56,488 nucleotides of DNA from an uncultured Candidatus Saccharibacteria bacterium (GCA_964607655.1 CAZSKX010000004.1:1-56488); one strand, 5' to 3'. Numbered from the stretch's first letter, positions 74-56,488 are shown. Made by a program: numbers and translations. The notes: a model not told the origin generated them from the sequence alone.

Positions 74-77
74 CTTG

Positions 78-2003: not shown

Positions 2004-2017
2004 GTAACATCTCCACT

Positions 2018-2092
2018 GCTCTCGTCGTCCAATGGATAGGACATCTCCCTCCGAAGGAGAAAAAGCGGATTCGATTCCTGCCGAGAGCACCA
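2018..2092 (+). tRNA. tRNA-Arg (anticodon CCG), copy 2, with encoded CCA and a weakened T stem
   Basis: Matches copy 1 at 68 of 72 positions. The anticodon arm is identical. The T stem GCGGA/CCTGC has one G.T pair and an A-C mismatch at the normally conserved 53-61 pair. The 3-prime end is ...GAGAGCACCA. Confidence 0.7.
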
Positions 2093-2096
2093 AACG

Positions 2097-2790: not shown

Positions 2791-3555
2791 CTATTTTGCC
2801 GGCTTAGAGCCCGCCCACAATCCTTCAAACCAAGCCTGCATGGTGTCGGCGTGTTCCTGCGAAGTGATCACCACACAGTAACTTTGCTTCTTCGAAGACA
2901 CGTACACGGTCTTGTCGTCATAAACGAAGATCGTTGTGTGGAATTTGCCGTGCATTACCTTGGGCAGGATTCGCACCTCAGACACACCCTCGTAATACTG
3001 TGCCATAAGATCTTTGTTCACCGGCGCTTCCCATAAGTTGCGCGTGGTGATACCCCGACGAAGGCGTTCCTCGATAAAAAGTTCGACAAACTCTCGGCCA
3101 ACCTGCCAGAAAAAGTTTTCTTTAGGCACCACCGAGTTGATGTGTCTGGTCTTTGAATACATCATCTCCATAATGGTGTTCTTTACCGCGTCTGCCCCTT
3201 CGAAGAAGGCTACGGTAGGTCGATCCCCTTGTGGTGCGTGAGTAGCAGCAAGAATTGGAACGAGTGCCTCGATCTGTTCTTGGCGTTTTGTGCTCTCAAG
3301 TGCCTGTTCTTTGGCAATGATCGAGAGCTTCTCGATGGGCTCGAGCGTAAACGCTTTATCCCCAGCCTGACCTGTTCGACTCAGTAGCCCTCTTTTTTCA
3401 AGGCACCCCAGTGCGTAATACACGGTAGGACGCTTTAAACGTGTCACCTTCACAAGATCTCGAGCTCTGTGAACACCTGAGACCATCGCCAGGTAGACCG
3501 TAACTTCCGATTCGCTAAGACCCAGTTCGAGCAAATGTTTTCGTGGTTCCTGCAT
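2791..3555 (-). CDS. TrmB-family winged-helix transcriptional regulator (paralog 1)
   Basis: N-terminal LLELGLSESEVTVYLAMV...ARDLVKVTRLKRPTVYYALGCLEKRGLL is the typical TrmB HTH. About 250 aa with a C-terminal domain, like the other three paralogs. Confidence 0.8.
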   Translation of the reverse strand: MQEPRKHLLELGLSESEVTVYLAMVSGVHRARDLVKVTRLKRPTVYYALGCLEKRGLLSRTGQAGDKAFTLEPIEKLSIIAKEQALESTKRQEQIEALVPILAATHAPQGDRPTVAFFEGADAVKNTIMEMMYSKTRHINSVVPKENFFWQVGREFVELFIEERLRRGITTRNLWEAPVNKDLMAQYYEGVSEVRILPKVMHGKFHTTIFVYDDKTVYVSSKKQSYCVVITSQEHADTMQAWFEGLWAGSKPAK

Positions 3556-3648: not shown

Positions 3649-4254
3649 ATGGGCATCTTTGGACTCACTGGCAACATCGGCTGCGGTAAGAGCACGGTCG
3701 CTTCCCTGCTCAGCACCTGTCCAAACGTCTACATCCACAACACCGACGAGATCGCCAAATCGATCCTCGCGGATCCAAAAAGTCTAGAGATTGTGAGAAG
3801 TATCCTTGGTTCTAAGGTCATTCACGATGGCATCGTCGACCGTAGCGCCGTAGCGAGGGTGATTTTCGGCAACAGCGTCAAGAAACGCTCGTTCGAAGCG
3901 TGGATGCATCCCCGTGTGTGGGAAACCGTCTACACTCAGATGAGTCCTAGCAGCTACGACGACATCCACGTTGTCGAATCAGCCATTATCTACGAAATGG
4001 GCGATGTCGATCGTTTTTCTGAGATCATTGTCGTGACCTGCGATGAAGAGGTGCAGAAGGAACGTCTGAGAAGAAATCGCAAGATGTCTGATGAAGACAT
4101 CGAGCTCCGGATGGACCATCAGCTGCCCGCCGCCGTGAAAGCGGCACGAGCAAACTTCGTCATCGACACCAACTGTGATCAGGGGACGCTTCTTAAGAAC
4201 GTCCTCAAATTGTATCGCTGGCTGATTCTGGCAAACCTGGAGGCAAGTAAGTAG
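3649..4254 (+). CDS. coaE: Dephospho-CoA kinase
   Basis: N-terminal GLTGNIGCGKST P-loop, about 200 aa. SD GAAAGGAGG lies upstream. Confidence 0.85.
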   Translation: MGIFGLTGNIGCGKSTVASLLSTCPNVYIHNTDEIAKSILADPKSLEIVRSILGSKVIHDGIVDRSAVARVIFGNSVKKRSFEAWMHPRVWETVYTQMSPSSYDDIHVVESAIIYEMGDVDRFSEIIVVTCDEEVQKERLRRNRKMSDEDIELRMDHQLPAAVKAARANFVIDTNCDQGTLLKNVLKLYRWLILANLEASK

Positions 4255-20364: not shown

Positions 20365-21442
20365 GGTAGAGGAGCGAGTTATCGCCAACCCCCTTCATAA
20401 TAAGAGGGCGCCCGATACCCGCTGCATGTAGTGAAATGCTTTCAGCATTTGTAAGACTAAATACTGTAGTTAAAAATCGGTGGTTAAAAGACAGGGCGAG
20501 CATCTCTCCTTCAAGTTTCGCATTTACCGTCTCTGATGACTCCCCAAGATCAGGATTTTTTGCAAAAAACGCGAGACTGTTCTTTTTGGGTTCAAAATGA
20601 ATCGACACTTTTTGAAATGCGTCCGAGAAAATTGCCGTGTGTTTAAGAGCCTGCTCGAAGTCTTTGCGTAAGGTTACTGCTTCGGCCACCGATTCTTTTG
20701 GAATAATCTGTTTATAATCTGGGTAGCCAGCACTCGTAAGTCGTGAGACGATCGCTCCATTTGGAGTTATAAAGGCGCATTGATGTTCATCAAACACAAC
20801 TTGTATCTCGTCATCAGGAAGCGCCTGAGCGATATCTAGAGCATTTTTAGCAGGAATAAGAAACTTACCCTGGAGACCCTTTTGGCTTATGGGTGTTTTC
20901 TTTTCTGCGAGTCTAAATGAATCTGTCGCCACAACAGTTAGAATCCCTCCTTCAATAACGAAATAGAGGCTGGCGAGTTCTGGACGTACTGTTGAAACAG
21001 AAGCGCATGCGGCGATTGAGGTAAAAAATGTACGTAGTGTTATTCCTGAAAGCACGAATGTGTTTTTTGATTGCTCAGGTAACGGAATCGACGGAAAATC
21101 CTCATACGGTACGGTTTTGATAGCGCTTTTACTCGAATCACTCGTTAAGGAGATCGTGTCGCCTGTGTGCTCAAGAGTTATCAACCCCTCCCCTGAAAGC
21201 GAGGATGCGATCTGCTGGAGAAGAGTGGCCGGGATTGCAACAACCCCATGTGTTTTACACACCCCTTGAATCGAAAGATCAATACCTGTTTCAAGGTTTG
21301 TGGCACGCATTTTAATTCCCTCCTCATTAGCCAAAATAAGTATTGAGGCGAGTGCCGGCAGTGTGGTGCTCTTACGTTCTGCGAATCGAGCGACTTTATA
21401 CACAGCATCTATAAATATCTTTTTTTCTATTGAAATATTCAT
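20342..21442 (-). CDS. dnaN: DNA polymerase III beta sliding clamp
   Basis: MNISIEKKIF... with three-domain length, located downstream of dnaA. The ATG at 21442 is preferred over 21481. Confidence 0.88.
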   Translation of the reverse strand: MNISIEKKIFIDAVYKVARFAERKSTTLPALASILILANEEGIKMRATNLETGIDLSIQGVCKTHGVVAIPATLLQQIASSLSGEGLITLEHTGDTISLTSDSSKSAIKTVPYEDFPSIPLPEQSKNTFVLSGITLRTFFTSIAACASVSTVRPELASLYFVIEGGILTVVATDSFRLAEKKTPISQKGLQGKFLIPAKNALDIAQALPDDEIQVVFDEHQCAFITPNGAIVSRLTSAGYPDYKQIIPKESVAEAVTLRKDFEQALKHTAIFSDAFQKVSIHFEPKKNSLAFFAKNPDLGESSETVNAKLEGEMLALSFNHRFLTTVFSLTNAESISLHAAGIGRPLIMKGVGDNSLLYLISPMNQ

Positions 21443-21555
21443 ACGAGTCCTATTAGGGGTGTTGATACCGTGGATAAACAAGAAAGAACGAACATACTCA
21501 ACAGTTTTTTGAGATTATTTTTATGAACAACATGTGAATTCATAGTAGATTCAGG

Positions 21556-22911
21556 CTATACAAGTAGTGAACGGATACTTTGAATCTCCTTTGCGAGCTC
21601 ACTATCCACAATCAAATCGTTCTTTATTTTCTCGCAAGAGTGGATAACAGTTGTGTGGTCACGACCACCAAGCTTCGCACCGATTGATGGATACGAAATA
21701 CGAAAATCTTCGCGCAAAAGGAACATGATCACTTGTCGCGGGCGCACCACCTCCCTTCTTCTGGTCTTCTCGTAGATACTGTCCTCATTAATACCGTAAA
21801 ATTCGGCAACTCGATCAACCACATTTTTAACTGAAATGGTTTTTTGAGGGCGAGTAAAGGAACGAAGTGACTGTCGAACCTCAGCGATGTCTGGAGGAGC
21901 CCCTTTTACCTGAGCGTGACAGACAATGTTGTTTACCATCCCTTCAAGTTCGCGAATAGAACCGGTCAAAGTTGTAGCAACATACTCCACAACCTCGTCA
22001 GAGAGCATAATGCCGTGCGAAGCGGCCTTCTTTCGCACAATTATCATGCGACTCTCGGGGTCAGGCTCGCCGATATCTATGGTCATACCGCTAGAGAAAC
22101 GACCTTTCAGGCGGTCAGCGATATCCGCAATCGCAACAGGAGCCCGATCTGAGGAGAAAATAATCTGCTTATTAGTATCATGGAGGGCATTAAAGAGGTG
22201 GAAGAGTTCCTCTTGAGTCTTATCCTTCTTTGATAAGAATTGCACATCGTCCATGATAAGAAGGTCATATTGGCGATACTTATCTTTGAAACGGTTTGCA
22301 GTCCCGGCCTGTACAGAATCGGTATAATCGATAACAAACTTCTCTGAGGTGAGATAAAACGCCTTCCGTCCCGGATACTGTTTCTTATACTGATTTCCTA
22401 TCGCCTGAATAAGGTGTGTTTTCCCCCGACCAGTCTCGCCGTAGATGAAGAGCGGGTTGTACGTAATACCTGGTCGTTCAATGGCTACCTGAGCTGCAGC
22501 GTGTGCAAGGTTGTTGAAAGAGCCAACCACGAACGTGTCGAAGGTGTAGCGGGGGTTTAAATTATCACTTTTATTTATGTAAAACTCGTTGAGTGGAAGC
22601 TCAACAGCGCCACGGATGGGTGTTTTTACTTCTCGCGCAGGCTTGCGACGCTCATCTTTAACGATCATATACTCAATATTTCTGAATTCATATGACACAT
22701 CACGGAAAATCTTGAGCAGGAGCGTGTGAAATTTCTTCAAATACCAATCCTTGAAGAACTGGCTTGGTACGCCGATGTACACCACCCCGTCCTCCCCCAC
22801 CTTAACGATATGGCTGCTACCGAACCAAGTGTTGAAATTTGCAGGAGAGATGGATAATTCAACCTGGGTAAGCACATACTCCCATAGTTCACGCGGATTC
22901 CCTTTATCCAT
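21556..22911 (-). CDS. dnaA: Chromosomal replication initiator DnaA
   Basis: GETGRGKTHL Walker A, LLIMDDVQFL Walker B and C-terminal domain IV (HTTVIHSCEKI). Confidence 0.95.
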   Translation of the reverse strand: MDKGNPRELWEYVLTQVELSISPANFNTWFGSSHIVKVGEDGVVYIGVPSQFFKDWYLKKFHTLLLKIFRDVSYEFRNIEYMIVKDERRKPAREVKTPIRGAVELPLNEFYINKSDNLNPRYTFDTFVVGSFNNLAHAAAQVAIERPGITYNPLFIYGETGRGKTHLIQAIGNQYKKQYPGRKAFYLTSEKFVIDYTDSVQAGTANRFKDKYRQYDLLIMDDVQFLSKKDKTQEELFHLFNALHDTNKQIIFSSDRAPVAIADIADRLKGRFSSGMTIDIGEPDPESRMIIVRKKAASHGIMLSDEVVEYVATTLTGSIRELEGMVNNIVCHAQVKGAPPDIAEVRQSLRSFTRPQKTISVKNVVDRVAEFYGINEDSIYEKTRRREVVRPRQVIMFLLREDFRISYPSIGAKLGGRDHTTVIHSCEKIKNDLIVDSELAKEIQSIRSLLV

Positions 22912-45073: not shown

Positions 45074-46603
45074 TCATCGTGCAAACTCGACGACGCGATT
45101 TTCGCGGATGATATTGACCTTAATTTCCCCAGGATACTTAAGCTCCGTTTGGATGCGCTTCGCGACATCTCGAGCAAGTTTGTGCATCGCGAGATCAGAA
45201 ACCTTGCCCGGGTTAACAAATACACGGATTTCGCGTCCGGCGGCGATGGCGTAGACCTTCTCTACTCCTTCAAACTGCCCAGCAACGCGCTCGAGGTCAG
45301 TGAGGCGCTCGAGATAGCGATCGATAGTGTCGCGGCGAGCGCCCGGCCGGCCGGCAGAAATCGAGTCTGCCACCTGGACCAGTACCGATTCAGGGGTTTC
45401 ATACGGAAACTCTTCATGATGCGACTGCATCGCTTGGATGATGCGTCGGTCGACACCGTACTTCTCGAGAATGCGACGACCAATTTCGACATGCGTACCC
45501 TCTACCTCGTGGTCCACGGCCTTGCCAATGTCATGGAGCAGTGCGCCTGCGCGTGCGACTGCAGGGTCAGCGCCGAGCTCTGTGGCGAGCATGCCAGCAA
45601 TGTGCGCCATTTCAATAGAGTGTTGGAGAACGTTCTGGCCATAGCTTGTGCGGAAGTAGAGCCTGCCGAGGAGGGCTGTCAGCTTCGGGTCGAGACCGAT
45701 CACGCCGGTCTCGTAAGCTGCAGCCTCGCCTTTCTCGCGCATGAGCTCGGCGACCTCGCTCCTCGTCTTCTCGACGATTTCTTCAATCTTTGCCGGCTGG
45801 ATGCGACCGTCAGCGATCAGTTTATCGAGTGCGATCTTGGCGATATGCCGACGAAGTGGGTCAAATGACGAGAGGCCGATCCGATCCGGCACGTCGTCGA
45901 TCAAGACATCGACACCTGTCGCTTTCTCGAAGGCTTTAATGTTGCGTCCTTCCTTACCGATAATCTTCCCTTTCACCTCATCTGAGGGGAGGGTGACGGT
46001 GAGTGTGGTCGTCTCAGCGTTTACGGCATTACCCAGGCGATGAATGATACTCGTGAGAATTGTGCGTGCTTTATTTTCGAGCATGGCGCGACCGTGCGCC
46101 TCAAGCTTTTGCATTCGTAGGAGTAAGGATTCTTCGTACGCGCGTTCGACGTCGCTGAAGAGCTCCTCCTTAGCCTGTGCCTCGGTAAAGTGGGCGACCT
46201 TTGAGAGTTCTCGCGTGCGATCTTTAAGCAGGGTCTCAAATTGACCCTTCAAGCGTTCGGCTTCTATCTCGCGTGCGCGAACTTCGTCTTCCTTCTCGTC
46301 GAGATCGCGTTGGCGCGAGTCGAGAAACTCCTCTCGGGTATCAAGACGCTCTTCCTTGCTCTCGAGCTTGTTTTCGCGTTCTTCGATGGGCGCGAGACGC
46401 TCGGTCTCGAACACTTCGGCGCGGTACTCTGCTTCGGTGATAATCTTTGCCGCTTCTTCCTTGGCCTGGAGGAGCTTCTGCTTTACCTCGAGTTCGACTG
46501 AGCCGCGTGAGGCAAGGCCGATAAGTACGCGCAGCACATAGCCTAAAATCACGCCTCCGAGCCCTGAAAGCGCAAGCATGATGAGAATAATCTGAAGCGA
46601 CAT
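45074..46603 (-). CDS. rny: Ribonuclease Y
   Basis: N-terminal TM, coiled coil, KH domain (GKIIGKEGRNI) and HD domain (LLHDIGKA). Confidence 0.93.
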   Translation of the reverse strand: MSLQIILIMLALSGLGGVILGYVLRVLIGLASRGSVELEVKQKLLQAKEEAAKIITEAEYRAEVFETERLAPIEERENKLESKEERLDTREEFLDSRQRDLDEKEDEVRAREIEAERLKGQFETLLKDRTRELSKVAHFTEAQAKEELFSDVERAYEESLLLRMQKLEAHGRAMLENKARTILTSIIHRLGNAVNAETTTLTVTLPSDEVKGKIIGKEGRNIKAFEKATGVDVLIDDVPDRIGLSSFDPLRRHIAKIALDKLIADGRIQPAKIEEIVEKTRSEVAELMREKGEAAAYETGVIGLDPKLTALLGRLYFRTSYGQNVLQHSIEMAHIAGMLATELGADPAVARAGALLHDIGKAVDHEVEGTHVEIGRRILEKYGVDRRIIQAMQSHHEEFPYETPESVLVQVADSISAGRPGARRDTIDRYLERLTDLERVAGQFEGVEKVYAIAAGREIRVFVNPGKVSDLAMHKLARDVAKRIQTELKYPGEIKVNIIRENRVVEFAR

Positions 46604-46632
46604 AGTCTGTTCGTGAGCCCGTACGGTACCAC

Positions 46633-46655
46633 AAATCCCCGCCCGGCGCATGCCG
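46633..46655. repeat. 23-nt repeat AAATCCCCGCCCGGCGCATGCCG (element copy A)
   Basis: Matches 48920-48942 at 22 of 23 positions. It lies about 29 nt upstream of the rny ATG on the minus strand. Confidence 0.6.
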
Positions 46656-46664
46656 CGCAGAAAC

Positions 46665-47468
46665 CTACTTTTTCGAGGGAACGCCCTGCCAGGATAGCTC
46701 GAAGATCATAGTCATCATGTCGTGGATCACCTGGTCCTCAATGATGGTGGCGGCAAACTGGGGTTCGCTAAAGTTGATAATCGAGACCTTATTCCCGCCA
46801 TAGATCGTTAGATCACTCTTATAGGGAAATTTGTCGCGAGAGACGTGGCGGAGTACAGGCCAGATCTTCTGGGGGAAGTCCTTATATATAGACTCGTTGT
46901 AGTTGATATCGAGCTCCTCATCAGGGAGAACTGCACGGGTGGTGATCCCGACCTTCGCCTTACGTTTTATGTATCTCTCGCGGAATTCGGGGGTGAGAAA
47001 GCGCATCAGGTCGCTCGTGTTGCTAAACGCGAGCATTTCATAGGGCGTATCACTCGCCACGTGGTCCTCATAGACTTTAAGTACGCCTTCCTCTCCTTCG
47101 AAGAAGCGCACGATCGGCTTATTCTCGGCGCCAGCAAAGAGGCCCTCGAGCGTCGGAAGGATGGTCTCGAGGCTCTCTACCCCACGCTTCGCGAGCGTTA
47201 CGCGCGAAGCCGCGTACCGCTCAAGGTTCTTCGGGTTCTCGACCTGGTAGAAGAACTTCTTGCGCTTCTCGAGCTCGGTCACGAGGCCCTTAATCGTGAG
47301 GCCTTCGAGCACCTTATATACCGTAGTGCGGTTAAGCCGGGTAATTTCAGAGAGTTTTGAGGGAAACGCACCGCCCGAGGCGAGGAGGGCGACGTAGACC
47401 TGGGCCTCTTTATCAGAGAGGCCAGCGCCCCGGACCTTGTCGACGAGCTTGGTATCGAGTTCGAGCAT
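46665..47468 (-). CDS. TrmB-family transcriptional regulator (paralog 2)
   Basis: GLSDKEAQVYVALLASGGAFPSKLSEITRLNRTTVYKVLEGLTIKGLV. Confidence 0.8.
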   Translation of the reverse strand: MLELDTKLVDKVRGAGLSDKEAQVYVALLASGGAFPSKLSEITRLNRTTVYKVLEGLTIKGLVTELEKRKKFFYQVENPKNLERYAASRVTLAKRGVESLETILPTLEGLFAGAENKPIVRFFEGEEGVLKVYEDHVASDTPYEMLAFSNTSDLMRFLTPEFRERYIKRKAKVGITTRAVLPDEELDINYNESIYKDFPQKIWPVLRHVSRDKFPYKSDLTIYGGNKVSIINFSEPQFAATIIEDQVIHDMMTMIFELSWQGVPSKK

Positions 47469-48970: not shown

Positions 48971-49567
48971 TTAGTTAAATACTTTGTCGACGATGCCGTA
49001 TTTCTTTGCTTCGTCAGCACTGAGGAAGAAGTCGCGCTCGACATCCTTCTCGATCTTCGCGAGCGGTTGGCCGGTGTTCTTGGCCATGATTTTATTCAAA
49101 CGTTCGCGCAGCTTCAGGATCTGCTTAGCAGTGATCTCGATGTCGGTCGCCTGTCCTTGCGCACCGCCATGGGGCTGGTGGATCATCACTTCCGCGTTCG
49201 GGAGGGCGTAGCGCTTCCCCTTCTCCCCCGCCGACAGGATCACCGCTGCGGCCGAGGCGGCCATGCCGACGCAGACCGTCGATACGCTGGGCTTCACGTG
49301 ATTCATCGTGTCGACGATCGCGAGGCCGGCAGTGACGACGCCACCGGGTGAGTTGATATAGAGCGAGATGTCGCGCTTTGGGTCCTCGGCTTCGAGGAAG
49401 AGGAGCTGAGCGATCACCAGATTTGCTACGTCATCATCGATCGGCCCGCCAAGGAAGACGACGCGCTCTTTAAGAAGACGTGAGTAAATATCATACGCGC
49501 GCTCGCCAAACTGACTCTTCTCGACCACCATCGGTACCAACATAGACGATGAAATTTTATTGCTCAT
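48971..49567 (-). CDS. clpP: ATP-dependent Clp protease proteolytic subunit
   Basis: [11 protein letters not shown], the catalytic-Ser context GMAASAA, and IHQP. Confidence 0.93.
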
Positions 49568-49584
49568 AGCGTTATCTCGTTACT

Positions 49585-49797
49585 CTAATAACCACCCACC
49601 GTTGCCTGCGTGCCACTAGTATACGCTCCGGTGCGTTTCTCAAAAGCGTAGTACGCTCCCAAGACGACCATCGCCATAATAATAATGATCGAGAGCATCG
49701 CGCCCCAAGACTGCTGCTTTCTCGAAGGAAGCTCGGGAGGTCGCCCGGCGAGCATGGCGGCGACCTCTTCGTGGGCCTTGTCCGATTTAGTCGGCAT
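49585..49797 (-). CDS. Small single-TM hypothetical protein, 70 aa
   Basis: One hydrophobic helix (AMLSIIIIMAMVVLGAYYAF), sandwiched in the same direction between ppa and clpP. Confidence 0.45.
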   Translation of the reverse strand: MPTKSDKAHEEVAAMLAGRPPELPSRKQQSWGAMLSIIIIMAMVVLGAYYAFEKRTGAYTSGTQATVGGY

Positions 49798-50311
49798 CGA
49801 GGTACATCTGGCACGCCCTCTGGAAGGCTGCTACGGCAGCATCCTTTCCTTCGTAGCCCTTGATCTCGACGGCAGCGGGCTTGCCCTTAAGATTCTTGTA
49901 GGTCTCGAAGAAGTGCACAAACTCTTTAAGCGTGTGCTTATTTAGATCATTCAGGTCCTGCACGTCGTCCCATCGCTTGTCGTCGACCGGTACAGCAATA
50001 ACCTTGTCGTCAGCGTCACCACCATCAATCATGCGGAGGATCCCAACCGGTCGTGCAGCGACGAGTAAGCCGACATTTAAGGGGTACGTAGTCATCACGA
50101 TCACGTCGAGCGCGTCACCGTCGTCCCAGAGTGTTTGCGGCACGAAGCCGTAATCAAAGGGATATGCTGCTGCTGAGTAGTTGGCGCGATCGAGCTTAAT
50201 AAGGCCGGTCTTCTTATCGATTTCGTATTTATTATGAGAATCTTTTGGGATCTCGATAATGACATTCATTGCTTCGGCTGTTCCCGCCTCGATATCGTGA
50301 AGTAGATTCAT
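49787..50311 (-). CDS. ppa: Inorganic pyrophosphatase (family I)
   Basis: VIIEIPKDSHNKYEID, YPFDYGFVPQT and DGDALDV. Confidence 0.93.
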   Translation of the reverse strand: MNLLHDIEAGTAEAMNVIIEIPKDSHNKYEIDKKTGLIKLDRANYSAAAYPFDYGFVPQTLWDDGDALDVIVMTTYPLNVGLLVAARPVGILRMIDGGDADDKVIAVPVDDKRWDDVQDLNDLNKHTLKEFVHFFETYKNLKGKPAAVEIKGYEGKDAAVAAFQRACQMYLDAD

Positions 50312-50327
50312 AGTGGTTCAGTATATC

Positions 50328-51683
50328 TTACTCGTCGTTTGCGCGGTCGCGATCGCCTTCCTTATCGGCGACTGACTCGTCACTGCCGGGGATTGTGGCG
50401 AGTTCTTCTTCAGCTGGGAGTGTGGTCACTTCCTCGCTGAGGTCAGTGATTACCTCTAAGCTTTCCGTAGGCATCAACCCTGCAGCTTCTGCAGGATCTT
50501 CCTCAGGGAGTGTGATCTCGACTGATTCACCATCGCTCTCGGCGACATCGGTGCCGCCCGTTGAGACGATGTCGATATTCCAGCCAGTGAGCTTGGCGGC
50601 GAGGCGCACGTTCTGGCCGCCGCGGCCGATCGCTCGGCTCTGCTCGTCTTCGCTCACAGTGACGACGGCGCGGTGCTGCTCCTCATCGAGCTCGACTGAG
50701 ATCGGCATGGCCGGAGAGAGCGCTTCCTTCACGAACTCGCGCGCATCCTCGTTCCACTCAATAATGTCGATGCGCTCACCCCCGAGCTCGCTCATCACGG
50801 TCGAGACGCGCACGCCACGCTGGCCCACGAGGGAGCCGACAGGGTCGACGTGAGGGTCGGTCGACACGAGGGCGAGCTTGGTGCGGCTGCCTGGTTCGCG
50901 AGCGATCGCCTTCACCTCGATTGCGCCGGTGGCGAGCTCTGGGGCCTCAAGCTCGAAGAGCTTAACTACAAACTTAGGATGTGCGCGCGAGAGGCGCAGG
51001 TACACACCGCGGAAGCCCTCATCGACGGCGTAGAGGTACGCGCGGATACGCTCGCCCATGCGGTAGCGCTCGCCCGGGATCTGCTCCTCGTATGGGATGA
51101 TGCCGGTCGTGCGGCCGAGGTCGACGAAGATCGCGCCGCGCTCCATGCGCTGCACGATACCGCCGACGATCTCACCCTTCTTCTCACCGAACTCTTCCAT
51201 CATCGAGATCTTCTCGGCTTCGCGCACCTTCTGGATCACGACCTGCTTGGCCGTTTGTGCGGCGATGCGACCGAAGTCGTCCTGTGGCTCGAGCGGGAAG
51301 ACAATCTCCTCCCCTACTTCTGCCCCGCGCTTGATCAGCTTCGCGTTTTCAAGAAGGATGTGCTTTTCCGCGTCAAAGCGTGGAAGCTCGCCCTCGGCGA
51401 GGGTCTCCTCTTCGTGGAAGCCGTGTGGATGCTCCTCAGGAAGCTCTTCCCCGTCATCGGGGAAACGGACAGCGCTCTCGTCTACAACGGTCTTTACCTG
51501 TTCAAATGAAACGGTGCCTGAGTTAAGGTCGAGCTTCGCGCGGATCACCTGTCCGCGCTTACCGTACTCGCGCTTATAGGCAGTGGCCATTGCGCTTTCA
51601 ATTGCATCAATCATCGTCTCACGACTAATGCCTCGAGTTTCAAACTCTCCGAGCACTGCGTGTATGGTTTTAAGGTCAATCAT
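50328..51683 (-). CDS. nusA: Transcription termination/antitermination factor NusA
   Basis: N-terminal domain, S1 domain (GGIVQRMERGAIFVDLG), two KH domains (GQRGVRV, GRGGQNVRLA) and an acidic tail. Confidence 0.93.
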   Translation of the reverse strand: MIDLKTIHAVLGEFETRGISRETMIDAIESAMATAYKREYGKRGQVIRAKLDLNSGTVSFEQVKTVVDESAVRFPDDGEELPEEHPHGFHEEETLAEGELPRFDAEKHILLENAKLIKRGAEVGEEIVFPLEPQDDFGRIAAQTAKQVVIQKVREAEKISMMEEFGEKKGEIVGGIVQRMERGAIFVDLGRTTGIIPYEEQIPGERYRMGERIRAYLYAVDEGFRGVYLRLSRAHPKFVVKLFELEAPELATGAIEVKAIAREPGSRTKLALVSTDPHVDPVGSLVGQRGVRVSTVMSELGGERIDIIEWNEDAREFVKEALSPAMPISVELDEEQHRAVVTVSEDEQSRAIGRGGQNVRLAAKLTGWNIDIVSTGGTDVAESDGESVEITLPEEDPAEAAGLMPTESLEVITDLSEEVTTLPAEEELATIPGSDESVADKEGDRDRANDE

Positions 51684-51773
51684 GGTTATGGGCTATGTAT
51701 GTTCGCACACGTAATAAAACTACTCAAACGAGAACGGTAGTTAACTACAAAGTACCAGATGGAATAGGGGGTG

Positions 51774-52502
51774 TCAAACAGCGCTGTATTCTCTCCAGAA
51801 GATTTCGAAAAGAGAATGTAGTGTCGCAAACGCAGCAGGGTCCTCTATAACAACTACACGGAAGTCGTCAACAAAGGAGACAAAGGCTACTTTATTAGTC
51901 CAAAGAAAAACATGAGATCCAAAAGGTAGCGAGTTGGCGATAATTTTTGTTTGACGCAGAAATTTTGTGTCTTGAGTGGCCCGATTTCGTGCGTAGGGAG
52001 AATCTTCACATATGCTGCGATAGGGTATTTTGCGGGCGATGCGTCTGCGATCAAATTGCTCCCAATGGCCGCCTGTTTGGAAGTTTGGATCGTTTTGATT
52101 AAAAGAAAATATCTCCTTAGCTTCATCAACCATGTGCCGAAATATGTTGCGGAGCCCTTGGGGGCCATCAAAAAACGCTACGGTTGGGGTTTTTGCCTGA
52201 GAGTCATATGCGGCTTTCAGCTCAGGAAGTACGCGCCCGAGAGCGTCGACCTGGGCATCTAGGGCGTCGCGGAGCACTTCAGGGTCAGCTGGCGTATACC
52301 ATTTACGTTTTTTTACGAAGAAAATACGAACATAGCCCTTGATTCGAAGAGATTTCAGAACCTCGTTTACTGTTGATTTAGGAAGCATGGCACGTTCTGC
52401 CAACATCGGTGGAGACGCGCGCCCGAGCATAAGAAGCGTCTTATAAACAGCCGCTTCCTTCTCAGACAAGCCCAGGAGCTGTAATTCTGTGATGAATTTC
52501 AT
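51774..52502 (-). CDS. TrmB-family transcriptional regulator (paralog 3)
   Basis: LQLLGLSEKEAAVYKTLLMLGRASPPMLAERAMLPKSTVNEVLKSLRIKGYV. The ATG at 52502 is preferred over 52571. Confidence 0.78.
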   Translation of the reverse strand: MKFITELQLLGLSEKEAAVYKTLLMLGRASPPMLAERAMLPKSTVNEVLKSLRIKGYVRIFFVKKRKWYTPADPEVLRDALDAQVDALGRVLPELKAAYDSQAKTPTVAFFDGPQGLRNIFRHMVDEAKEIFSFNQNDPNFQTGGHWEQFDRRRIARKIPYRSICEDSPYARNRATQDTKFLRQTKIIANSLPFGSHVFLWTNKVAFVSFVDDFRVVVIEDPAAFATLHSLFEIFWREYSAV

Positions 52503-52537
52503 AAATAGACGATGAAATTGTCCAATTTCTAGTAAGA

Positions 52538-52552
52538 TAATACATTGTATTA
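52538..52552. promoter_or_regulatory. Perfect palindrome TAATACA-T-TGTATTA, candidate operator
   Basis: Lies in the AT-rich divergent region between TrmB-3 and the 310-aa ORF. Confidence 0.35.
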
Positions 52553-52673
52553 TATACATATATTTATGCAAGGGTACATTAATACGCTACTCGATAGTTT
52601 ATTTATACGGTATTGATAAAGTCTCGGTGGATGGAGTACGTTACAACCGAACACGCTGATAAGGAGGAAACAA

Positions 52674-53606
52674 ATGCCCGTAACGCTACATGTCGACCCG
52701 AAACAGAACGGAATGTCCTGGAAGGAGTTCCTTGCTACTAAGCCGCCATTCTCGATAGCGCTCGACGGCTACGTCGAAGACGCTCCGCGTTATCAGACCA
52801 AAGGTCCCTATCTCAACCTGAACCATCACGAGAAAGTCTCTAGGATGGAAACGCGAGCAACCTGTGCTCAGGCGCGAATTCATGTCGAGCAAGGGCTCTT
52901 TACGAGGTTCCAGCAGGACGGCGAACCACATGCCCACGTCTGGGTGAACGACTGCGATCAGGATGTATGTTTTGCCTGGGCGATACTAAACAACCCGAAA
53001 CGATTGCTTGGGCACAGCTTCCCCGAATGTGTCGATGCGGTGGATCGACTCGATACTTGCGGTGGGTTTACGCGGACTTTCTGTCGCAAGAATGAGTTGG
53101 CATGGATCTTCGAACCCTATGACCTATTTCGAACCTCTGGGGAGCTGAGCAAGCGCGATCCAGAGCAGTTTCGGAAAGTCATCAAGGAAGTGGTCGAACG
53201 GGTGGACTCTGTACAGAAGGACGAGGGATCTCCCTGGGTTGGCCACAAGATGCGAGACGCTTATGAAATTATCCGAACGGGTACAGGATGGATTCTAGTG
53301 AAAGAGGAGTCGACAAACGCACGCGGAGTCATGTACCAGGATGGGCATCGGGCTTTCGTGGCGATGACGGAACGTCCCGATGGTGCCTGGCAGTACTCAG
53401 TCGGGCGAGCGTCGCCTCTCGTGCCCTTCCCGGTTCCGCAGATACTCAAAGCGCTTGCGAGGGCCGAGCATGATCCAAAACACACGTGGGGAGGGTCGGA
53501 TTTGATCGGCGGGTGTAACCGAGTGCACGGCAGCACGCTTTGTCCCGAAGAGGTGGCCGGCACTGTGGAGAATACGATAAAGAAATTCCTTAGGAGGTGT
53601 AAGTAG
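52674..53606 (+). CDS. Hypothetical protein, 310 aa (cargo 1)
   Basis: SD AAGGAGG 8 nt upstream and its own terminator. I recognise no family. NHHE, NDCDQD and a late WGGSDLIGG give only a faint DHH/DHHA1 flavour. Confidence 0.6.
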   Translation: MPVTLHVDPKQNGMSWKEFLATKPPFSIALDGYVEDAPRYQTKGPYLNLNHHEKVSRMETRATCAQARIHVEQGLFTRFQQDGEPHAHVWVNDCDQDVCFAWAILNNPKRLLGHSFPECVDAVDRLDTCGGFTRTFCRKNELAWIFEPYDLFRTSGELSKRDPEQFRKVIKEVVERVDSVQKDEGSPWVGHKMRDAYEIIRTGTGWILVKEESTNARGVMYQDGHRAFVAMTERPDGAWQYSVGRASPLVPFPVPQILKALARAEHDPKHTWGGSDLIGGCNRVHGSTLCPEEVAGTVENTIKKFLRRCK

Positions 53607-53616
53607 AGGAACAGCA

Positions 53617-53655
53617 AACCCCGATCGCGCGAAGCGAGTTCGGGGTTCACTTTTT
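53617..53655 (+). terminator. Intrinsic terminator of the 310-aa ORF
   Basis: AACCCCGA...TCGGGGTT followed by CACTTTTT. Confidence 0.7.
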
Positions 53656-53690
53656 GTGCGGGACAGAAGACCTCAAGTGCGCTGGTGACC

Positions 53691-53728
53691 TAAAAATAAG
53701 GGCCGGCACATTGGTTTGTGCCGGCCCT
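53691..53728 (-). terminator. Intrinsic terminator of the 230-aa ORF
   Basis: AGGGCCGGCACA-N6-TGTGCCGGCCCT, followed on the minus strand by TATTTTTA. Confidence 0.7.
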
Positions 53729-53739
53729 AGTTTCATGGG

Positions 53740-54432
53740 TCACCTCCAGAAAATTTGGTCGATCGTCGGTGGAACCACCTTTGCTGCTCCGTATACCAGC
53801 ATGCTTGTCGTAAGCTCGAGCTTCACGTCGCACGCAGGGGCTCCGATGGACCGGATCCACGCGCAGAGCTGAGCGTAGAATTCCTTACCCTCCGTCAGGC
53901 GACTCACTCCCTGTACGGTGTACACGGCGAATCGTTCTTTTCTACCACCGGGCACGTTTTTGATGCGTGCGAGGTAGTAGACGCCGTTCTCGATAAGCAT
54001 CTCCCCGAGACCCCTGGGCATTTCGCTTTCGCGGAACGCCAGGTGGATATCCCAGACCTTGTGGGTCTCGCGCGGCTCTGAGCGCAGACGCTCGAAAGGC
54101 AGCAGGTGAAGCTTGAATGCAGTCTCCGGCTCGATGCGGTTATCAGCCAAGACGCACTCGCTGTGGTAGTAACCTACTGCGCCGGTCTCCCGCAACAGTC
54201 GGTCCACCTCGATCTCCAGTTCGCGAAGTTCAGGGTGATTTCTCACCTTCTTCGAGACGTGGATGTCGATCAATGGGCAAGCTGTGTAGTACCGAGCGGT
54301 TTCCTCGTCAAAGATGAGTCCCCGCTCGGCGAGGCTGTCGTCGGCGAATCCGAGGCTCGCGAGAGCCTCTTTCAGAGTTGGGCCTCCCCCAGCTTCAGTG
54401 GCCACGTGCATGTCGTATCCGAGTTTCTTCAT
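53740..54432 (-). CDS. Hypothetical protein, 230 aa (cargo 2)
   Basis: The ATG at 54432 is preceded by AAGGAGGG. Three recurring D-x-H-hydrophobic strands are present (YDMHVA, IDIHVS, WDIHLA). I recognise no family. Confidence 0.6.
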   Translation of the reverse strand: MKKLGYDMHVATEAGGGPTLKEALASLGFADDSLAERGLIFDEETARYYTACPLIDIHVSKKVRNHPELRELEIEVDRLLRETGAVGYYHSECVLADNRIEPETAFKLHLLPFERLRSEPRETHKVWDIHLAFRESEMPRGLGEMLIENGVYYLARIKNVPGGRKERFAVYTVQGVSRLTEGKEFYAQLCAWIRSIGAPACDVKLELTTSMLVYGAAKVVPPTIDQIFWR

Positions 54433-54512
54433 AGACCCTCCTTTGGTCAGTTGTTGTGGTGAACTAATGGTCTGCTCAGACTTTACACCATACCTTTTTA
54501 ATGTATAGTAAT

Positions 54513-54527
54513 TCACATAACATGTGA
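54513..54527. promoter_or_regulatory. Inverted repeat TCACAT-AAC-ATGTGA, candidate operator
   Basis: Lies in the divergent region between cargo 2 and TrmB-4. Confidence 0.3.
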
Positions 54528-54570
54528 GGAAAAACTTGTATTTTGAGCCCGAGACGGTAATGTTACTCAC

Positions 54571-55296
54571 ATGAAAATACTTGAAGAACTGGGATTAACG
54601 CGGGCCGAGGCCAGGACCTACGAGCGGCTGTTGCAACTTGGCGAGTGTCCTGTAAGTGTTTTGCAAAAGTCACTAGCGGCCCACCCTCAGGTGGTGTACA
54701 GGTCAGTGGATGGTCTTGTACAAAAGGGGCTTGCTGTCGTCGTGGTTAAGAAAAGCAAAAAGTACGTTAGCCCAGAACATCCAAAGAAGCTAGAACAGCT
54801 CGAACGAGAGAAGACAGAGCGGTTAAAAGAGAGCTTGCCAGAGCTCATGCGTCTCATGGCTCCGCATAAAGACGCGTTAGTGAAAACCAGCGTGGGTATC
54901 GAAGCAGTCCAAGCCTTTCGTCGCAGAAGCATCGATGAACTAAAGAGGGGTGACAGTCTGTATATCATTGGTGGGTCGGGGGACAGGTTCTACAGTGTTA
55001 TGGGCGAGAAGTATGAAGAGATTGAAGCCAAAAGAATCAAGAAAAAGATCTACAAGAAACTAATAGCTTTTTCCTCTGAAAAGGAGAAGTTTCAATCTGA
55101 TCCACACAGGCTCTATACAGTATTCAGATTCTTCCCCTCTTATCATCCAACCACATCGAGTATTAATATATTTGGCGATAATGTCGGGATATTAATATGG
55201 GCAACTGAACCCATTGTCATCCATATCAAGAGCGAAGAAGTCGCGCTTTCCTACAGAAACTACTTTGATGAACTCTGGGCCGCCGCTGTCGAATAG
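54571..55296 (+). CDS. TrmB-family transcriptional regulator (paralog 4)
   Basis: LEELGLTRAEARTYERLLQLGECPVSVLQKSLAAHPQVVYRSVDGLVQKGL. Confidence 0.78.
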   Translation: MKILEELGLTRAEARTYERLLQLGECPVSVLQKSLAAHPQVVYRSVDGLVQKGLAVVVVKKSKKYVSPEHPKKLEQLEREKTERLKESLPELMRLMAPHKDALVKTSVGIEAVQAFRRRSIDELKRGDSLYIIGGSGDRFYSVMGEKYEEIEAKRIKKKIYKKLIAFSSEKEKFQSDPHRLYTVFRFFPSYHPTTSSINIFGDNVGILIWATEPIVIHIKSEEVALSYRNYFDELWAAAVE

Positions 55297-55344
55297 GAGA
55301 TCGCGAGTACACGATCGAGTACGTTGCTCACGCTGTTTTCAATG

Positions 55345-55415
55345 TGCGGGATAGGAGAATCGAACTCCTGCTCTCAGTTTGGAAAACTGATGTTCTACCA
55401 TTAAACTAATCCCGC
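55345..55415 (-). tRNA. tRNA-Gly (anticodon UCC)
   Basis: Reverse complement GCGGGAT-TA-GTTT-AATGGTA-GAAC-A-TCAGT-TTTCCAA-ACTGA-GAGC-AGGAG-TTCGATT-CTCCT-ATCCCGC-A. Confidence 0.88.
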
Positions 55416-55497
55416 TTTAATGATTTTGAGCATACCACACCTCGCTTAGTAGTGGATCTGCCTTGCGCCAAGCGCGGAGAGGAGTCCTTCGCAGCTA

Positions 55498-55526
55498 TTG
55501 ACAAGTAACTAAACAAATGCTACATT
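55498..55526 (+). promoter_or_regulatory. Near-consensus sigma70 promoter
   Basis: TTGACA, a 17-nt spacer, then TACATT, about 100 nt upstream of the high-GC ORF. Confidence 0.5.
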
Positions 55527-55626
55527 AACGCGAGCAGGTGTGTAGGGCTCTTGCCCCACTGACCATGCCCTCAAATCCAAACCGAGGGCAAAACTCGATC
55601 CAAACAGACCGAAAAAGGAGAAAACT

Positions 55627-56319
55627 ATGAGGAAACTCATCTTCACGTCCTTCGTCGCGCTCGTCGCGGCCGTCTCGTTCAGCACCCCGGCCTCGGCTGG
55701 TGACAACCCGAACCGGCACAAGGTCGATGGCATCGTCATCGGCCTCGCGCATGAGCAGCAGGCCAAGCTCCACGAGATGGAGCGCGGCAAGAAGCGGCTC
55801 GAGAAGTCGGGAGGTGTCACGATCGCCTGCACCGACCAGCTGTGGAGCGACGATGTCGGAGACGCCGTCTCCGGCATCTTCAGCGAGTGGGGATACCAGC
55901 AGCGCCGCGGCAAGCCCGTGGTGCACGTGGTGGCGAACTTCGCCGTCACGGTGTGCAAGCACGGCGCGTGCAACACCACGTACGAGTACGTGGATCCCGC
56001 GAACGTGAACTACGTGGGCGGCGTGCTGACGATGCACAACGACTCCCACTACCTGCGGTGCCAGGACGTCGAAAACGGGTACCTGTACCAGAGCGACGAC
56101 CGGTCGCACTGGTTCAACAACCAGGGCTCGAGTGGGCAGAACAAGAACGAGTACCAGTACCGCGACGTGGACATCAGCGGCGCCTGGCACCCCGATCTTG
56201 GTGACAACGTGTTCCACCAGCAGTACCTGCAGGTGTGGACCGGTGACAGCAAGCAGGTCCACCCCGTCAACGAGACGCAGCCGGGCGCGGGCGGATCGGG
56301 CGGCGGCGGCAAGAAGTAG
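55627..56319 (+). CDS. Secreted hypothetical protein encoded by a compositionally foreign (high-GC) gene
   Basis: SD AAAAGGAG, signal peptide MRKLIFTSFVALVAAVSFSTPASA, four Cys and a Gly-rich KK tail. Third codon positions are almost all G/C. A terminator lies downstream. Confidence 0.7.
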   Translation: MRKLIFTSFVALVAAVSFSTPASAGDNPNRHKVDGIVIGLAHEQQAKLHEMERGKKRLEKSGGVTIACTDQLWSDDVGDAVSGIFSEWGYQQRRGKPVVHVVANFAVTVCKHGACNTTYEYVDPANVNYVGGVLTMHNDSHYLRCQDVENGYLYQSDDRSHWFNNQGSSGQNKNEYQYRDVDISGAWHPDLGDNVFHQQYLQVWTGDSKQVHPVNETQPGAGGSGGGGKK

Positions 56320-56372
56320 CCGCCGCGATCACGGCCGAAGAGTATGGTTTTGCCTCCTTCGCTTCGGCCAAC

Positions 56373-56410
56373 GGCCGGCATCCCTCACAGGATGTCGGCC
56401 GTTTCTTTTT
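56373..56410 (+). terminator. Intrinsic terminator
   Basis: GGCCGGCATCC-CTCACA-GGATGTCGGCC followed by GTTTCTTTTT. Confidence 0.7.
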
Positions 56411-56415
56411 GTTTG

Positions 56416-56486
56416 TCGGGCCGCCGAGAGTCGAACTCGGTCAGCTTGCTCCCAAAGCAAGTGTACTACCGTCATACGCCGGCCCG
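56416..56486 (-). tRNA. tRNA-Pro (anticodon UGG)
   Basis: Reverse complement CGGGCCG-GC-GTAT-GACGGTA-GTAC-A-CTTGC-TTTGGGA-GCAAG-CTGA-CCGAG-TTCGACT-CTCGG-CGGCCCG-A. The C1-G72 pair is typical of bacterial tRNA-Pro. Position 8 is G rather than U. Confidence 0.75.
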
Positions 56487-56488
56487 TT

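What the first reader, a model, noticed from the sequence alone, without database searches (positions are those of the whole stretch)
51774..55296. Mirror-symmetric double cassette: TrmB<- ->cargo1 >< cargo2<- ->TrmB
Two TrmB-like regulators sit at the outer ends. Each is transcribed divergently from an uncharacterised gene, of 310 aa and 230 aa respectively. The two cargo genes converge on a 133-nt spacer that holds two separate strong intrinsic terminators (53617-53655 on the plus strand, 53691-53728 on the minus strand). Both cargo genes have strong SDs. Both divergent control regions are AT-rich and contain palindromes: TAATACA-T-TGTATTA at 52538, and TCACAT-AAC-ATGTGA at 54513. Cargo 1 has clustered His/Asp/Cys motifs (NHHE, NDCDQD, WGGSDLIGG) that hint at a metal-dependent hydrolase. 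Cargo 2 has three D-x-H strand motifs. The locus abuts a tRNA gene and the high-GC island, which suggests an accessory, individually regulated two-module system of unknown function.
Basis: partly seen in the sequence, partly recalled or inferred. Interest (0 to 1): 0.65.

Follow-up and report, generated by a model that had tools for sequence, protein, structure and literature searches.

The report
Two unrelated regulator–enzyme gene pairs
The "mirror double cassette" is two unrelated regulator–gene pairs lying tail to tail: one is a conserved regulator–enzyme module with a conserved DNA operator in Saccharibacteria-type bacteria, and the other is a pairing seen only in this genome.

Summary
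They do not form one system.

**Right pair (TrmB2 and cargo 2).** This is a real module. A TrmB-like gene lies divergently next to a cargo-2 homolog in 12 of 13 other informative loci. An operator, TCACA-N5-TGTGA, is present in all ten aligned intergenic regions. Cargo 2 belongs to a rare family with no name, no Pfam model and no solved-structure neighbour. It is an internally duplicated tandem βαββαβ protein with invariant His9, Glu92, His130 and Glu206. I read it as a metal-dependent enzyme of unknown chemistry.

**Left pair (TrmB1 and cargo 1).** This pairing is specific to this genome.
- TrmB1 has no relative above 31% identity.
- Among neighbours of cargo-1 homologs, 0 of 52 upstream and 1 of 58 downstream are TrmB proteins.
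- Cargo 1 is a divergent two-domain DHH/DHHA1-fold protein from a widespread unnamed family, probably a phosphoesterase.

The two pairs never co-occur elsewhere. TrmB1 and TrmB2 share only 25% identity. The window carries four such paralogs in 56 kb, so the symmetry is most simply a coincidence.

Interest is moderate. It rests on two uncharacterised enzyme families and one testable operator.

The parts
51774..52502 (-). trmB1: an orphan TrmBL2-type winged-helix regulator, 242 aa, with no Shine-Dalgarno site
   Evidence: PF01978 at E 7.8e-15. The best relative anywhere is 31% identical. A family profile matches TrmBL2 full length.
52537..52553 (.). Palindrome ATAATACA-T-TGTATTAT in the trmB1 / cargo 1 control region; a candidate TrmB1 operator, not verified
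   Evidence: 65 of 2000 shuffles do as well. It overlaps the weak promoter-like site ATGAAA-18-GATAAT at 52512-52541. No orthologous region exists to test conservation.
52674..53606 (+). Cargo 1: a 310-aa DHH/DHHA1-fold protein, probably a phosphoesterase, from an unnamed and widespread family
   Evidence: No Pfam match. pLDDT 93. Foldseek matches a PAP phosphatase (8a8k), the NrnA-like TM1595, GdpP and RecJ at E 2e-5 to 1e-3. Invariant D31, H51, H52, D93, D95, D97, D124, D127, G273, G280 and R283.
53617..53655 (+). Hairpin plus T-run after cargo 1; a moderate intrinsic terminator
   Evidence: dG -20.7, z -1.8. The scan did not call it.
53691..53728 (-). Strong intrinsic terminator after cargo 2
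   Evidence: 12-bp stem with 9 G-C pairs, followed by TATTTTTA. dG -28.9, z -5.25.
53740..54432 (-). Cargo 2: a 230-aa internally duplicated tandem βαββαβ protein with an invariant His/Glu set, from a rare unnamed family
   Evidence: No Pfam, PADLOC or PHROG match. 66 cluster representatives among 1.84 billion. pLDDT 92.5. No PDB neighbour. Matches BFVD viral models at TM 0.5-0.57. The N-terminal half aligns to the C-terminal half at E 4.7e-7. Invariant H9, E92, H130 and E206.
54480..54509 (.). Two conserved promoter boxes. Read on the + strand they give -35 TTTACA (54482-87) and -10 TATAGT (54504-09) for trmB2. Read on the - strand they give -35 TATACA and -10 TAAAGT for cargo 2.
   Evidence: The + strand match scores 10 of 12. 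TGTAAAGT and TnTACA are conserved across 10 loci. In L088 the first box reads TATAAT on the cargo-2 strand.
54513..54527 (.). Conserved operator TCACA-N5-TGTGA, the probable TrmB2 binding site
   Evidence: Exact in the window and 8 loci, with one mismatch in L088. It occurs once per locus and always in the intergenic region. The half-sites are conserved and the spacer varies.
54571..55296 (+). trmB2: a TrmBL2-type regulator, 241 aa, the conserved partner of cargo 2
   Evidence: PF01978 at 31.2 bits. Orthologs at 62-76% identity lie divergently next to cargo 2 in L003-L007 and L089-L091. L096 and L097 also carry a divergent PF01978 gene, though its identity to TrmB2 was not measured.
55344..55415 (-). 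tRNA-Gly(UCC) abutting the trmB2 3' end
   Evidence: A tRNA gene lies within 200 nt of the pair in 5 of 11 loci, a different tRNA each time.

Best explanation
The region holds two independent divergent regulator–target units placed tail to tail.

**Unit 2 (trmB2 and cargo 2) is a conserved module.** I infer that a TrmB2 dimer binds the TCACA-N5-TGTGA site. This site overlaps the predicted transcription start of the trmB2-directed promoter, which would give autorepression. It also sits about 5 nt upstream of the -35 box of the cargo-2-directed reading of the same conserved boxes. TrmB2 would therefore switch cargo 2 on or off, presumably in response to a small ligand sensed by its C-terminal domain. 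Cargo 2 is a pseudo-twofold tandem ferredoxin-like protein. Its invariant His9/Glu92 and His130/Glu206, plus His58, most likely form a metal centre, so it is probably a metalloenzyme of unknown substrate.

**Unit 1 (trmB1 and cargo 1) is a lineage-specific juxtaposition.** It joins an orphan TrmB paralog to a stand-alone DHH/DHHA1-fold protein. That protein is probably a Mn2+/Mg2+-dependent phosphoesterase acting on nucleotides or short oligonucleotides. TrmB1 may regulate it through the 8+8 palindrome.

**Shown versus inferred.** Shown: the genes, the folds, the conserved residues, the conservation of pair 2 and of its operator, and the lack of conservation of pair 1 and of the four-gene arrangement. 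Inferred: DNA binding at the palindromes, the direction of regulation, the existence of a ligand, and all catalytic chemistry.
For: **Pair 2 conservation.**
- A TrmB-like gene is the divergent neighbour of the cargo-2 homolog in L003-L007, L088-L091, L092 (cargo only 31% identical), L095 (a small ORF lies between them) and L096/L097.
- The only exception is the most distant homolog, L094.
- Across L003-L007 and L089-L091 the regulator is more conserved (62-76%) than the cargo (49-65%).

**Operator and promoter.**
- The half-sites are conserved and the spacer varies across 10 loci.

**Regulator type.** The full-length profile matches TrmBL2 at E 2.9e-12.

**Cargo 2.**

**Cargo 1.**

**Independence of the two units.** The window has four TrmB paralogs.
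Against: - There is no experimental or expression evidence.
- The conserved boxes can be read as a promoter in either direction, so whether TrmB2 represses or activates cargo 2 is open.
- Cargo 1 shares no detectable sequence similarity with DHH families. Its motif-like elements occur in the order D31, NHH, DxDxD, DTxG, which is not the canonical I-II-III-IV order.
- Foldseek TM-scores for cargo 1 are modest (0.29-0.42).
- Cargo 2 has no structural or sequence link to any characterised enzyme, so it could be a binding protein instead.
- The pair 1 relationship rests only on adjacency and one palindrome with a shuffle frequency near 3%.
- The neighbour gene calls in the 80 cargo-1 loci come from a crude longest-ORF heuristic of my own.
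Confidence: 0.72

Rival explanations
1. The four genes form one accessory two-module system, with the two cargos acting together and each regulated by its own TrmB.
For: The four genes form a compact mirror arrangement with paired terminators and lie next to a tRNA gene.
Against: There is no co-occurrence in either direction. TrmB1 is an orphan. Cargo-1 neighbours are essentially never TrmB proteins. The genes downstream of cargo 2 differ in every locus examined.
Confidence: 0.05
2. The trmB2 / cargo 2 pair is a small mobile accessory cassette that lands beside tRNA genes. It could be a stress, defence or toxin-like function under a tight repressor, rather than a metabolic enzyme.
For: A tRNA gene lies within 200 nt of the pair in 5 of 11 loci, and it is a different tRNA each time: Gly, Gln, His, Cys and Ser. 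In a control set of cargo-1 loci the figure is 5 of 59. The flanking genes vary. The family is rare and patchy. The only structural relatives are uncharacterised phage and giant-virus proteins.
Against: No integrase, transposase or tRNA-derived direct repeats flank the pair in the window. There is no PADLOC or PHROG match. The tRNA enrichment rests on small numbers; my binomial estimate is about 1e-3, and the control set comes from different taxa.
Confidence: 0.15
3. Cargo 2 is not an enzyme. It is a ligand- or nucleic-acid-binding protein with a tandem ferredoxin-like fold of the ACT, RAM, TBP or RRM type, and its polar sheet face binds a partner.
For: The weak PDB similarities are to TBP, ACT-domain proteins, uL5 and designed ferredoxin folds. 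Tandem βαββαβ folds are often binding modules.
Against: Pseudo-symmetric invariant His/Glu pairs plus conserved D-x-H strands are more typical of metal sites. All PDB matches are insignificant, with E at least 0.026 and TM no higher than 0.26.
Confidence: 0.2
4. TrmB1 does not regulate cargo 1. It is a general, TrmBL2-like or otherwise targeted regulator, and its position next to cargo 1 is incidental.
For: The pairing is not conserved. TrmBL2, the closest solved relative, is from my own knowledge a broad chromatin-like DNA binder. The other two paralogs in the window sit beside the housekeeping genes coaE and RNase Y.
Against: The genes are divergent across a 171-nt AT-rich gap. An 8+8 palindrome overlaps the -10-like box of the cargo-1-directed promoter-like site.
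Confidence: 0.35

Closest known systems
TrmBL2 of Thermococcales (PDB 5bqt, 5box, 5bpd), within the TrmB family (PF01978)
   Same: Both have an N-terminal winged helix-turn-helix, a coiled-coil linker and a C-terminal domain of about 130 aa, with no separate sugar-binding subdomain. The profile of the window's paralogs aligns over residues 14-245 against 17-261 of TrmBL2 at E 2.9e-12.
   Different: The window proteins are bacterial (Saccharibacteria-type) rather than archaeal. TrmB2 is tied to one divergent target gene and one specific palindromic operator. TrmBL2 (my own knowledge) is a broad binder. The NCBIfam TrmBL2 equivalog scores only 13-18 bits against a cut-off of 530, so these are not orthologs.
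DHH/DHHA1 phosphoesterases: NrnA-like TM1595, GdpP, DhhP, archaeal PAP phosphatase 8a8k, RecJ
   Same: Cargo 1 has the same predicted two-domain fold, with full-length Foldseek alignments of 325-344 columns and probability 0.93-1.0. It has an invariant Asp/His set: D31, H51, H52, D93, D95, D97, D124 and D127. It also has a Gly-rich C-terminal motif, WGG...IGGSxR, which recalls the DHHA1 GGGH motif.
   Different: There is no Pfam DHH or DHHA1 match and no PDB sequence match. The motif-like elements are in a non-canonical order. NHH replaces DHH. The family has its own signature, DRLxTRATCAQ.
Dimeric α+β-barrel / tandem ferredoxin-like proteins (chlorite dismutase-like, DyP, sulfur oxygenase reductase)
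   Same: Cargo 2 is predicted as two βαββαβ units in one chain, and the two halves are demonstrably homologous. These proteins are its top PDB hits, although the hits are insignificant.
   Different: E is at least 0.026 and TM no higher than 0.26, so membership is not established. The His/Glu pattern is unique to this family. The better structural matches are uncharacterised viral proteins in BFVD.
Classical divergent regulator–target pairs with an operator in the shared control region (for example LysR- or TetR-type arrangements)
   Same: The genes are divergent, and a palindromic site with conserved half-sites lies between the start codons and overlaps the regulator's own predicted promoter.
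   Different: The regulator family (TrmB-like) is mainly known from archaea. The target enzyme and the ligand are unknown.

Membership tests
TrmB family transcription regulators | N-terminal TrmB-type winged HTH (PF01978) above the gathering score | tested here: met
   TrmB1 scores 54.9 bits and TrmB2 31.2 bits against a cut-off of 25.6.
TrmB family transcription regulators | Sugar-binding effector domain of TrmB proper, or equivalog-level match to TrmB or TrmBL1 | tested here: not met
   No C-terminal Pfam domain was found. The NCBIfam equivalogs score 11-34 bits against cut-offs of 500-650.
TrmBL2-type architecture | Full-length similarity (wHTH, coiled coil and C-terminal domain) to solved TrmBL2 | tested here: met
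   The profile A8 against 5bqt/5box/5bpd gives E 2.9e-12, covering 14-245 against 17-261.
DHH phosphoesterase superfamily (cargo 1) | Two-domain DHH plus DHHA1 fold | tested here: met
   The AlphaFold model has pLDDT 93.2. Foldseek matches 8a8k, 5o7f, 5xt3 and 7yor at E 2e-5 to 1e-3 and probability at least 0.97, but TM is only 0.3-0.42.
DHH phosphoesterase superfamily (cargo 1) | Motifs I-IV (DxD, D, DHH, D) in canonical order, and the GGGH motif in DHHA1 | tested here: inconclusive
   Invariant D31, H51-H52, D93xD95xD97, D124xxD127-T-x-x-G and WGG...GGSxR are present. Their order differs from the canonical one and the first residue of motif III is Asn. No residue-level structural superposition was available.
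DHH phosphoesterase superfamily (cargo 1) | Match to Pfam DHH (PF01368) or DHHA1 (PF02272), or to a solved member by sequence | tested here: not met
   No match for the query or for 45 family members at E up to 1. No PDB sequence match at E up to 10.
DHH phosphoesterase superfamily (cargo 1) | Metal-dependent phosphoesterase activity | not testable with these tools
   This needs an enzyme assay.
Dimeric α+β-barrel / CDE-type tandem ferredoxin fold (cargo 2) | Significant structural match to a member | tested here: not met
   The best PDB hit has E 0.026 and TM 0.24-0.26. The topology is consistent and the internal duplication is confirmed.
Intrinsic terminators | G+C-rich hairpin directly followed by a U-run, more stable than shuffles | tested here: met
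   This holds for the minus-strand site. The plus-strand site is only marginal, at z -1.8.
Known anti-phage defence or toxin-antitoxin systems | Match of a component to PADLOC models | tested here: not met
   Only weak wHTH-level matches (CasR, Csa3) were found for the regulators, and none for either cargo.
tRNA-targeted integrative island | Adjacency to a tRNA gene, plus an integrase and flanking direct repeats derived from the tRNA | tested here: not met
   tRNA adjacency is present. No tRNA-derived direct repeat was found in 49500-56488, and no integrase lies among the four genes or their neighbours.

The most novel reading that the evidence does not exclude
Cargo 2 founds a previously undescribed enzyme family with a fold not represented in the PDB. 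The fold would be a pseudo-twofold tandem βαββαβ protein with a His/Glu metal centre. The family is confined mainly to Saccharibacteria and other CPR bacteria, and has structural relatives in phages and giant viruses. It would be carried with its own dedicated TrmB-type repressor as a two-gene cassette that relocates next to tRNA genes. Separately, cargo 1 could define a permuted branch of the DHH superfamily with a new nucleotide substrate.
Probability: 0.3. Interest if true: 0.6.

Novelty: new member of a known kind. Interest (0 to 1): 0.38.

Why it matters
Saccharibacteria and other CPR bacteria have very small genomes. Much of their regulation and many of their conserved hypothetical proteins are unexplained.

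- **A testable regulator–operator–target triplet.** The analysis gives a concrete, comparatively supported case for a bacterial TrmB-like regulator: TrmB2, the TCACA-N5-TGTGA site, and cargo 2. It can be tested directly by EMSA or a reporter assay.
- **Two unnamed protein families flagged.** One is a widespread DHH-fold putative phosphoesterase, with at least 385 metagenomic loci. The other is a rare duplicated His/Glu protein with no solved structural relative. Both are reasonable targets for structure and function work.
- **A caution about the four-gene symmetry.** The eye-catching arrangement should not be treated as one system.

Tried and rejected
- **Inverted duplication.** Rejected. TrmB1 and TrmB2 share 25% identity over 154 aa, and the two cargos are unrelated.
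- **Cargos as known families.** Pfam, NCBIfam, PADLOC and PHROGs scans found nothing for either cargo. Scanning 45 and 56 family members at E up to 1 also found nothing consistent. PDB sequence profiles gave nothing for cargo 1, and for cargo 2 only a chance-level match to Ta1207 at E 0.07.
- **SulP link for cargo 1.** A SulP–STAS–cNMP-binding transporter lies downstream of cargo-1 homologs in 8 loci. Together with the PAP-phosphatase structural hit, this looked like a functional clue. All 8 loci belong to one clade (70-100% identity), so it counts as a single event. I keep it only as a weak lead.
- **Riboswitch or other known RNA.** Only the two tRNAs were found in 51500-56488.
- **att-like repeats of the tRNA-Gly 3' end.** None found.
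- **Viral-contig scan with the wide cargo-2 alignment.** This failed because the alignment has no conserved stretch long enough.
- **Literature.** Searches for TrmB together with Saccharibacteria, Patescibacteria or CPR returned nothing.
- **Origin of the window.** A look-up of the window's own cargo 2 found no record. The taxonomic assignment rests on the nearest loci being Saccharibacteria and Paceibacterota MAGs.

Full report
**1. What is in the sequence**

Between NusA (50328-51683, minus strand) and tRNA-Gly(UCC) (55344-55415, minus strand) lie four genes:
- trmB1, 51774-52502(-)
- cargo 1, 52674-53606(+)
- cargo 2, 53740-54432(-)
- trmB2, 54571-55296(+)

Both outer proteins pass the Pfam TrmB gathering score, with 54.9 and 31.2 bits against 25.6.

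The 230-aa start of cargo 2 is fixed by alignment with 24 homologs. For trmB1, the ATG at 52502 fits the family N-terminus better than the upstream TTG.

The 133-nt convergent spacer holds two hairpins.
- The minus-strand terminator is strong: a 12-bp stem, dG -28.9 and z -5.25.
- The plus-strand hairpin with its T-run is weaker (dG -20.7, z -1.8), and the scan did not call it.

Both palindromes are at the stated coordinates and are unique in the window. Shuffling each intergenic region gives different results for the two. The left 8+8 palindrome is somewhat unusual, matched by 65 of 2000 shuffles. The right 6+6 palindrome is not unusual on its own, matched by 390 of 2000.

The cargos have AAGGAGG Shine-Dalgarno sites. 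The two regulators have none.

**2. The right-hand pair is a conserved module**

Cargo 2 has only 24 relatives at 48-67% identity in the 5.8-billion-protein set. An exhaustive profile search found 66 cluster representatives among 1.84 billion proteins. The nearest genomic loci are Saccharibacteria and Paceibacterota MAGs.

A TrmB-like gene is the divergent upstream neighbour of the cargo-2 homolog in the following loci:
- L003-L007
- L088-L091
- L096/L097
- L092, where the cargo is only 31% identical
- L095, where a small ORF is inserted between the two genes

Only the most remote homolog, L094, lacks the TrmB neighbour. In L003-L007 and L089-L091 the regulator is 62-76% identical to TrmB2, which is more conserved than the cargo at 49-65%.

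Alignment of ten intergenic regions shows three features:
- The half-sites TCACA and TGTGA are conserved around a variable 5-nt spacer. The site is exact in the window and 8 loci, has one mismatch in L088, and occurs once per locus.
- Two further boxes, TnTACA and TGTAAAGT, are conserved.
- On the + strand these boxes give the best sigma-70-like promoter in the region: TTTACA, 16 nt, TATAGT, scoring 10 of 12.

The predicted start of that promoter falls inside the palindrome. This geometry fits autorepression of trmB2.

On the opposite strand the same boxes read as -35 TATACA and -10 TAAAGT. In L088 the -10 box is a perfect TATAAT. This reading puts the palindrome just upstream of a cargo-2 promoter. 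The direction of control of cargo 2 is therefore an inference and remains undecided.

**3. What cargo 2 is**

Cargo 2 has no match in Pfam, NCBIfam, PADLOC or PHROGs. The same holds for 56 family members.

The AlphaFold model is confident (pLDDT 92.5) and shows two βαββαβ units. The two halves are homologous by profile-profile comparison: probability 92.5% and E 4.7e-7. This alignment pairs H9 with H130 and E92 with E206.

Across 56 diverse members, H9, E92, H130 and E206 are invariant apart from the start Met. H58 is conserved in at least 90%.

No PDB structure matches, with a best E of 0.026 and TM no higher than 0.26. BFVD contains uncharacterised phage and giant-virus proteins at TM 0.5-0.57, including a 602-aa Tupanvirus protein annotated as adenylate kinase.

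My best reading is a pseudo-symmetric His/Glu metalloenzyme of unknown substrate. A binding-protein reading cannot be excluded.

**4. The left-hand pair is not conserved**

Cargo 1 belongs to a large family.
- It has more than 200 hits.
- 385 metagenomic stretches were confirmed by tblastn.
- Source names include Uhrbacteria and Omnitrophica.

Using my own ORF heuristic, I scanned the immediate neighbours of homologs with Pfam. TrmB appeared in 0 of 52 upstream neighbours and 1 of 58 downstream neighbours.

TrmB1 itself has no relative above 31% identity.

Cargo 1 has no Pfam or PDB sequence match. Its model (pLDDT 93.2) matches two-domain DHH/DHHA1 phosphoesterases at E 2e-5 to 1e-3. These include the archaeal PAP phosphatase 8a8k, the NrnA-like TM1595, GdpP, DhhP and RecJ. 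The DHHA1-like C-Ala domain of AlaRS also matches.

The family-invariant residues resemble the DHH metal and substrate motifs: D31, H51/H52, D93/D95/D97, D124/D127 and the WGG...GGSxR motif. They occur in a non-canonical order.

A probable phosphoesterase is thus supported by fold and residues. It is not supported by sequence-family membership.

**5. The two pairs are independent**

- None of the 10 cargo-2 loci scanned with all four window proteins holds a cargo-1 or TrmB1 homolog.
- None of 82 cargo-1 loci holds cargo 2 or TrmB2.
- The regulators share 25% identity over 154 aa.
- The window carries four full-length TrmBL2-type paralogs, at 2794-3555, 46668-47468, 51774-52502 and 54571-55296.

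With about one paralog per 14 kb, two of them framing a convergent gene pair is unremarkable.

**6. tRNA adjacency**

A tRNA gene lies within 200 nt of the trmB2 / cargo 2 pair in 5 of 11 loci. It is a different tRNA each time: Gly, Gln, His, Cys and Ser. In the control set, 5 of 59 cargo-1 loci have a tRNA that close. By my binomial estimate this is about p = 1e-3.

Together with the variable flanking genes, this hints that the pair relocates as a unit next to tRNA genes. No integrase or att-like repeat was found, so it remains a minor rival or an add-on to the main explanation.

**7. Comparison with known systems and verdict**

Functionally the right pair works like any divergent regulator–target unit with a shared operator. 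The regulator is a bacterial member of the TrmB family with TrmBL2-like architecture, but it is not an ortholog of any named TrmB.

Cargo 1 is best described as a new, sequence-divergent family with the DHH fold. Cargo 2 is an uncharacterised family with no solved relative.

The double cassette as a system is not real. The parts are a new member of a known kind of regulatory unit, plus two uncharacterised enzyme-like families. Interest is moderate.

Noticed in passing
window 2794-3555(-), 46668-47468(-): There are two further full-length TrmBL2-type paralogs in the window. One is divergent from coaE (3649-4254). The other sits directly upstream of RNase Y (45074-46651) on the same strand. That makes four paralogs in 56 kb.
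   Followed up: partly
window 20342-22911 and about 23-24 kb: dnaN and dnaA lie in a low-GC stretch (44-46%), and the cumulative GC-skew minimum is at about 24 kb. The window therefore spans the chromosomal replication origin, and the finding lies about 30 kb from it.
   Followed up: partly
window 2-74 and 2018-2092: Two nearly identical tRNA-Arg(CCG) genes flank a ClpB/ClpC-like AAA+ ORF (78-2093, minus strand).
   Followed up: partly
window 49542-49556 and 52505-52519: An exact 15-nt direct repeat, ATAGACGATGAAATT, occurs twice: once inside the 5' end of clpP and once immediately upstream of the trmB1 start codon. Chance is possible, and its meaning is unknown.
   Followed up: no
window 55627-56319(+): A 64.5% GC gene lies between tRNA-Gly and tRNA-Pro. 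It encodes a 230-aa protein with a signal-peptide-like N-terminus and no Pfam match, and is followed by a strong terminator at 56370-56403.
   Followed up: partly
window 54566-54573, and the first columns of alignment A7: The bases TCAC directly before the trmB2 ATG are conserved in 9 of 10 loci. Together with the start codon they read TTCACATG, which is the same as an operator half-site. This could be a third TrmB2 contact or a leaderless-start context.
   Followed up: no
L008 5001-6716 and 7020-8039: The closest metagenomic cargo-1 homolog (52% identity) is a 571-aa protein whose extra C-terminal half weakly resembles CitG, the triphosphoribosyl-dephospho-CoA synthase (24.2 bits, below the cut-off of 27). 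An ADP-ribosylglycohydrolase gene follows it.
   Followed up: partly
L009 1-7300: A cargo-1 homolog is embedded in an array of 13 tRNA genes within 7.3 kb.
   Followed up: no
L059, L062, L069, L073, L075, L078, L080, L082: In one clade of cargo-1 homologs (70-100% identical to each other), the downstream gene is a SulP sulfate-permease-family transporter. STAS was detected in 6 of these downstream proteins and a cyclic-nucleotide-binding domain in 5; some are truncated by contig ends. Two upstream neighbours elsewhere carry adenylate/guanylate cyclase domains. This is a weak hint towards pAp or cyclic-nucleotide chemistry.
   Followed up: partly
L092 271-363: A distant cargo-2 homolog (31% identity) with its own divergent TrmB-like gene has a different palindrome, CCCTATAGGG, in the shared control region. 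This suggests the operator has co-diverged with the regulator.
   Followed up: no
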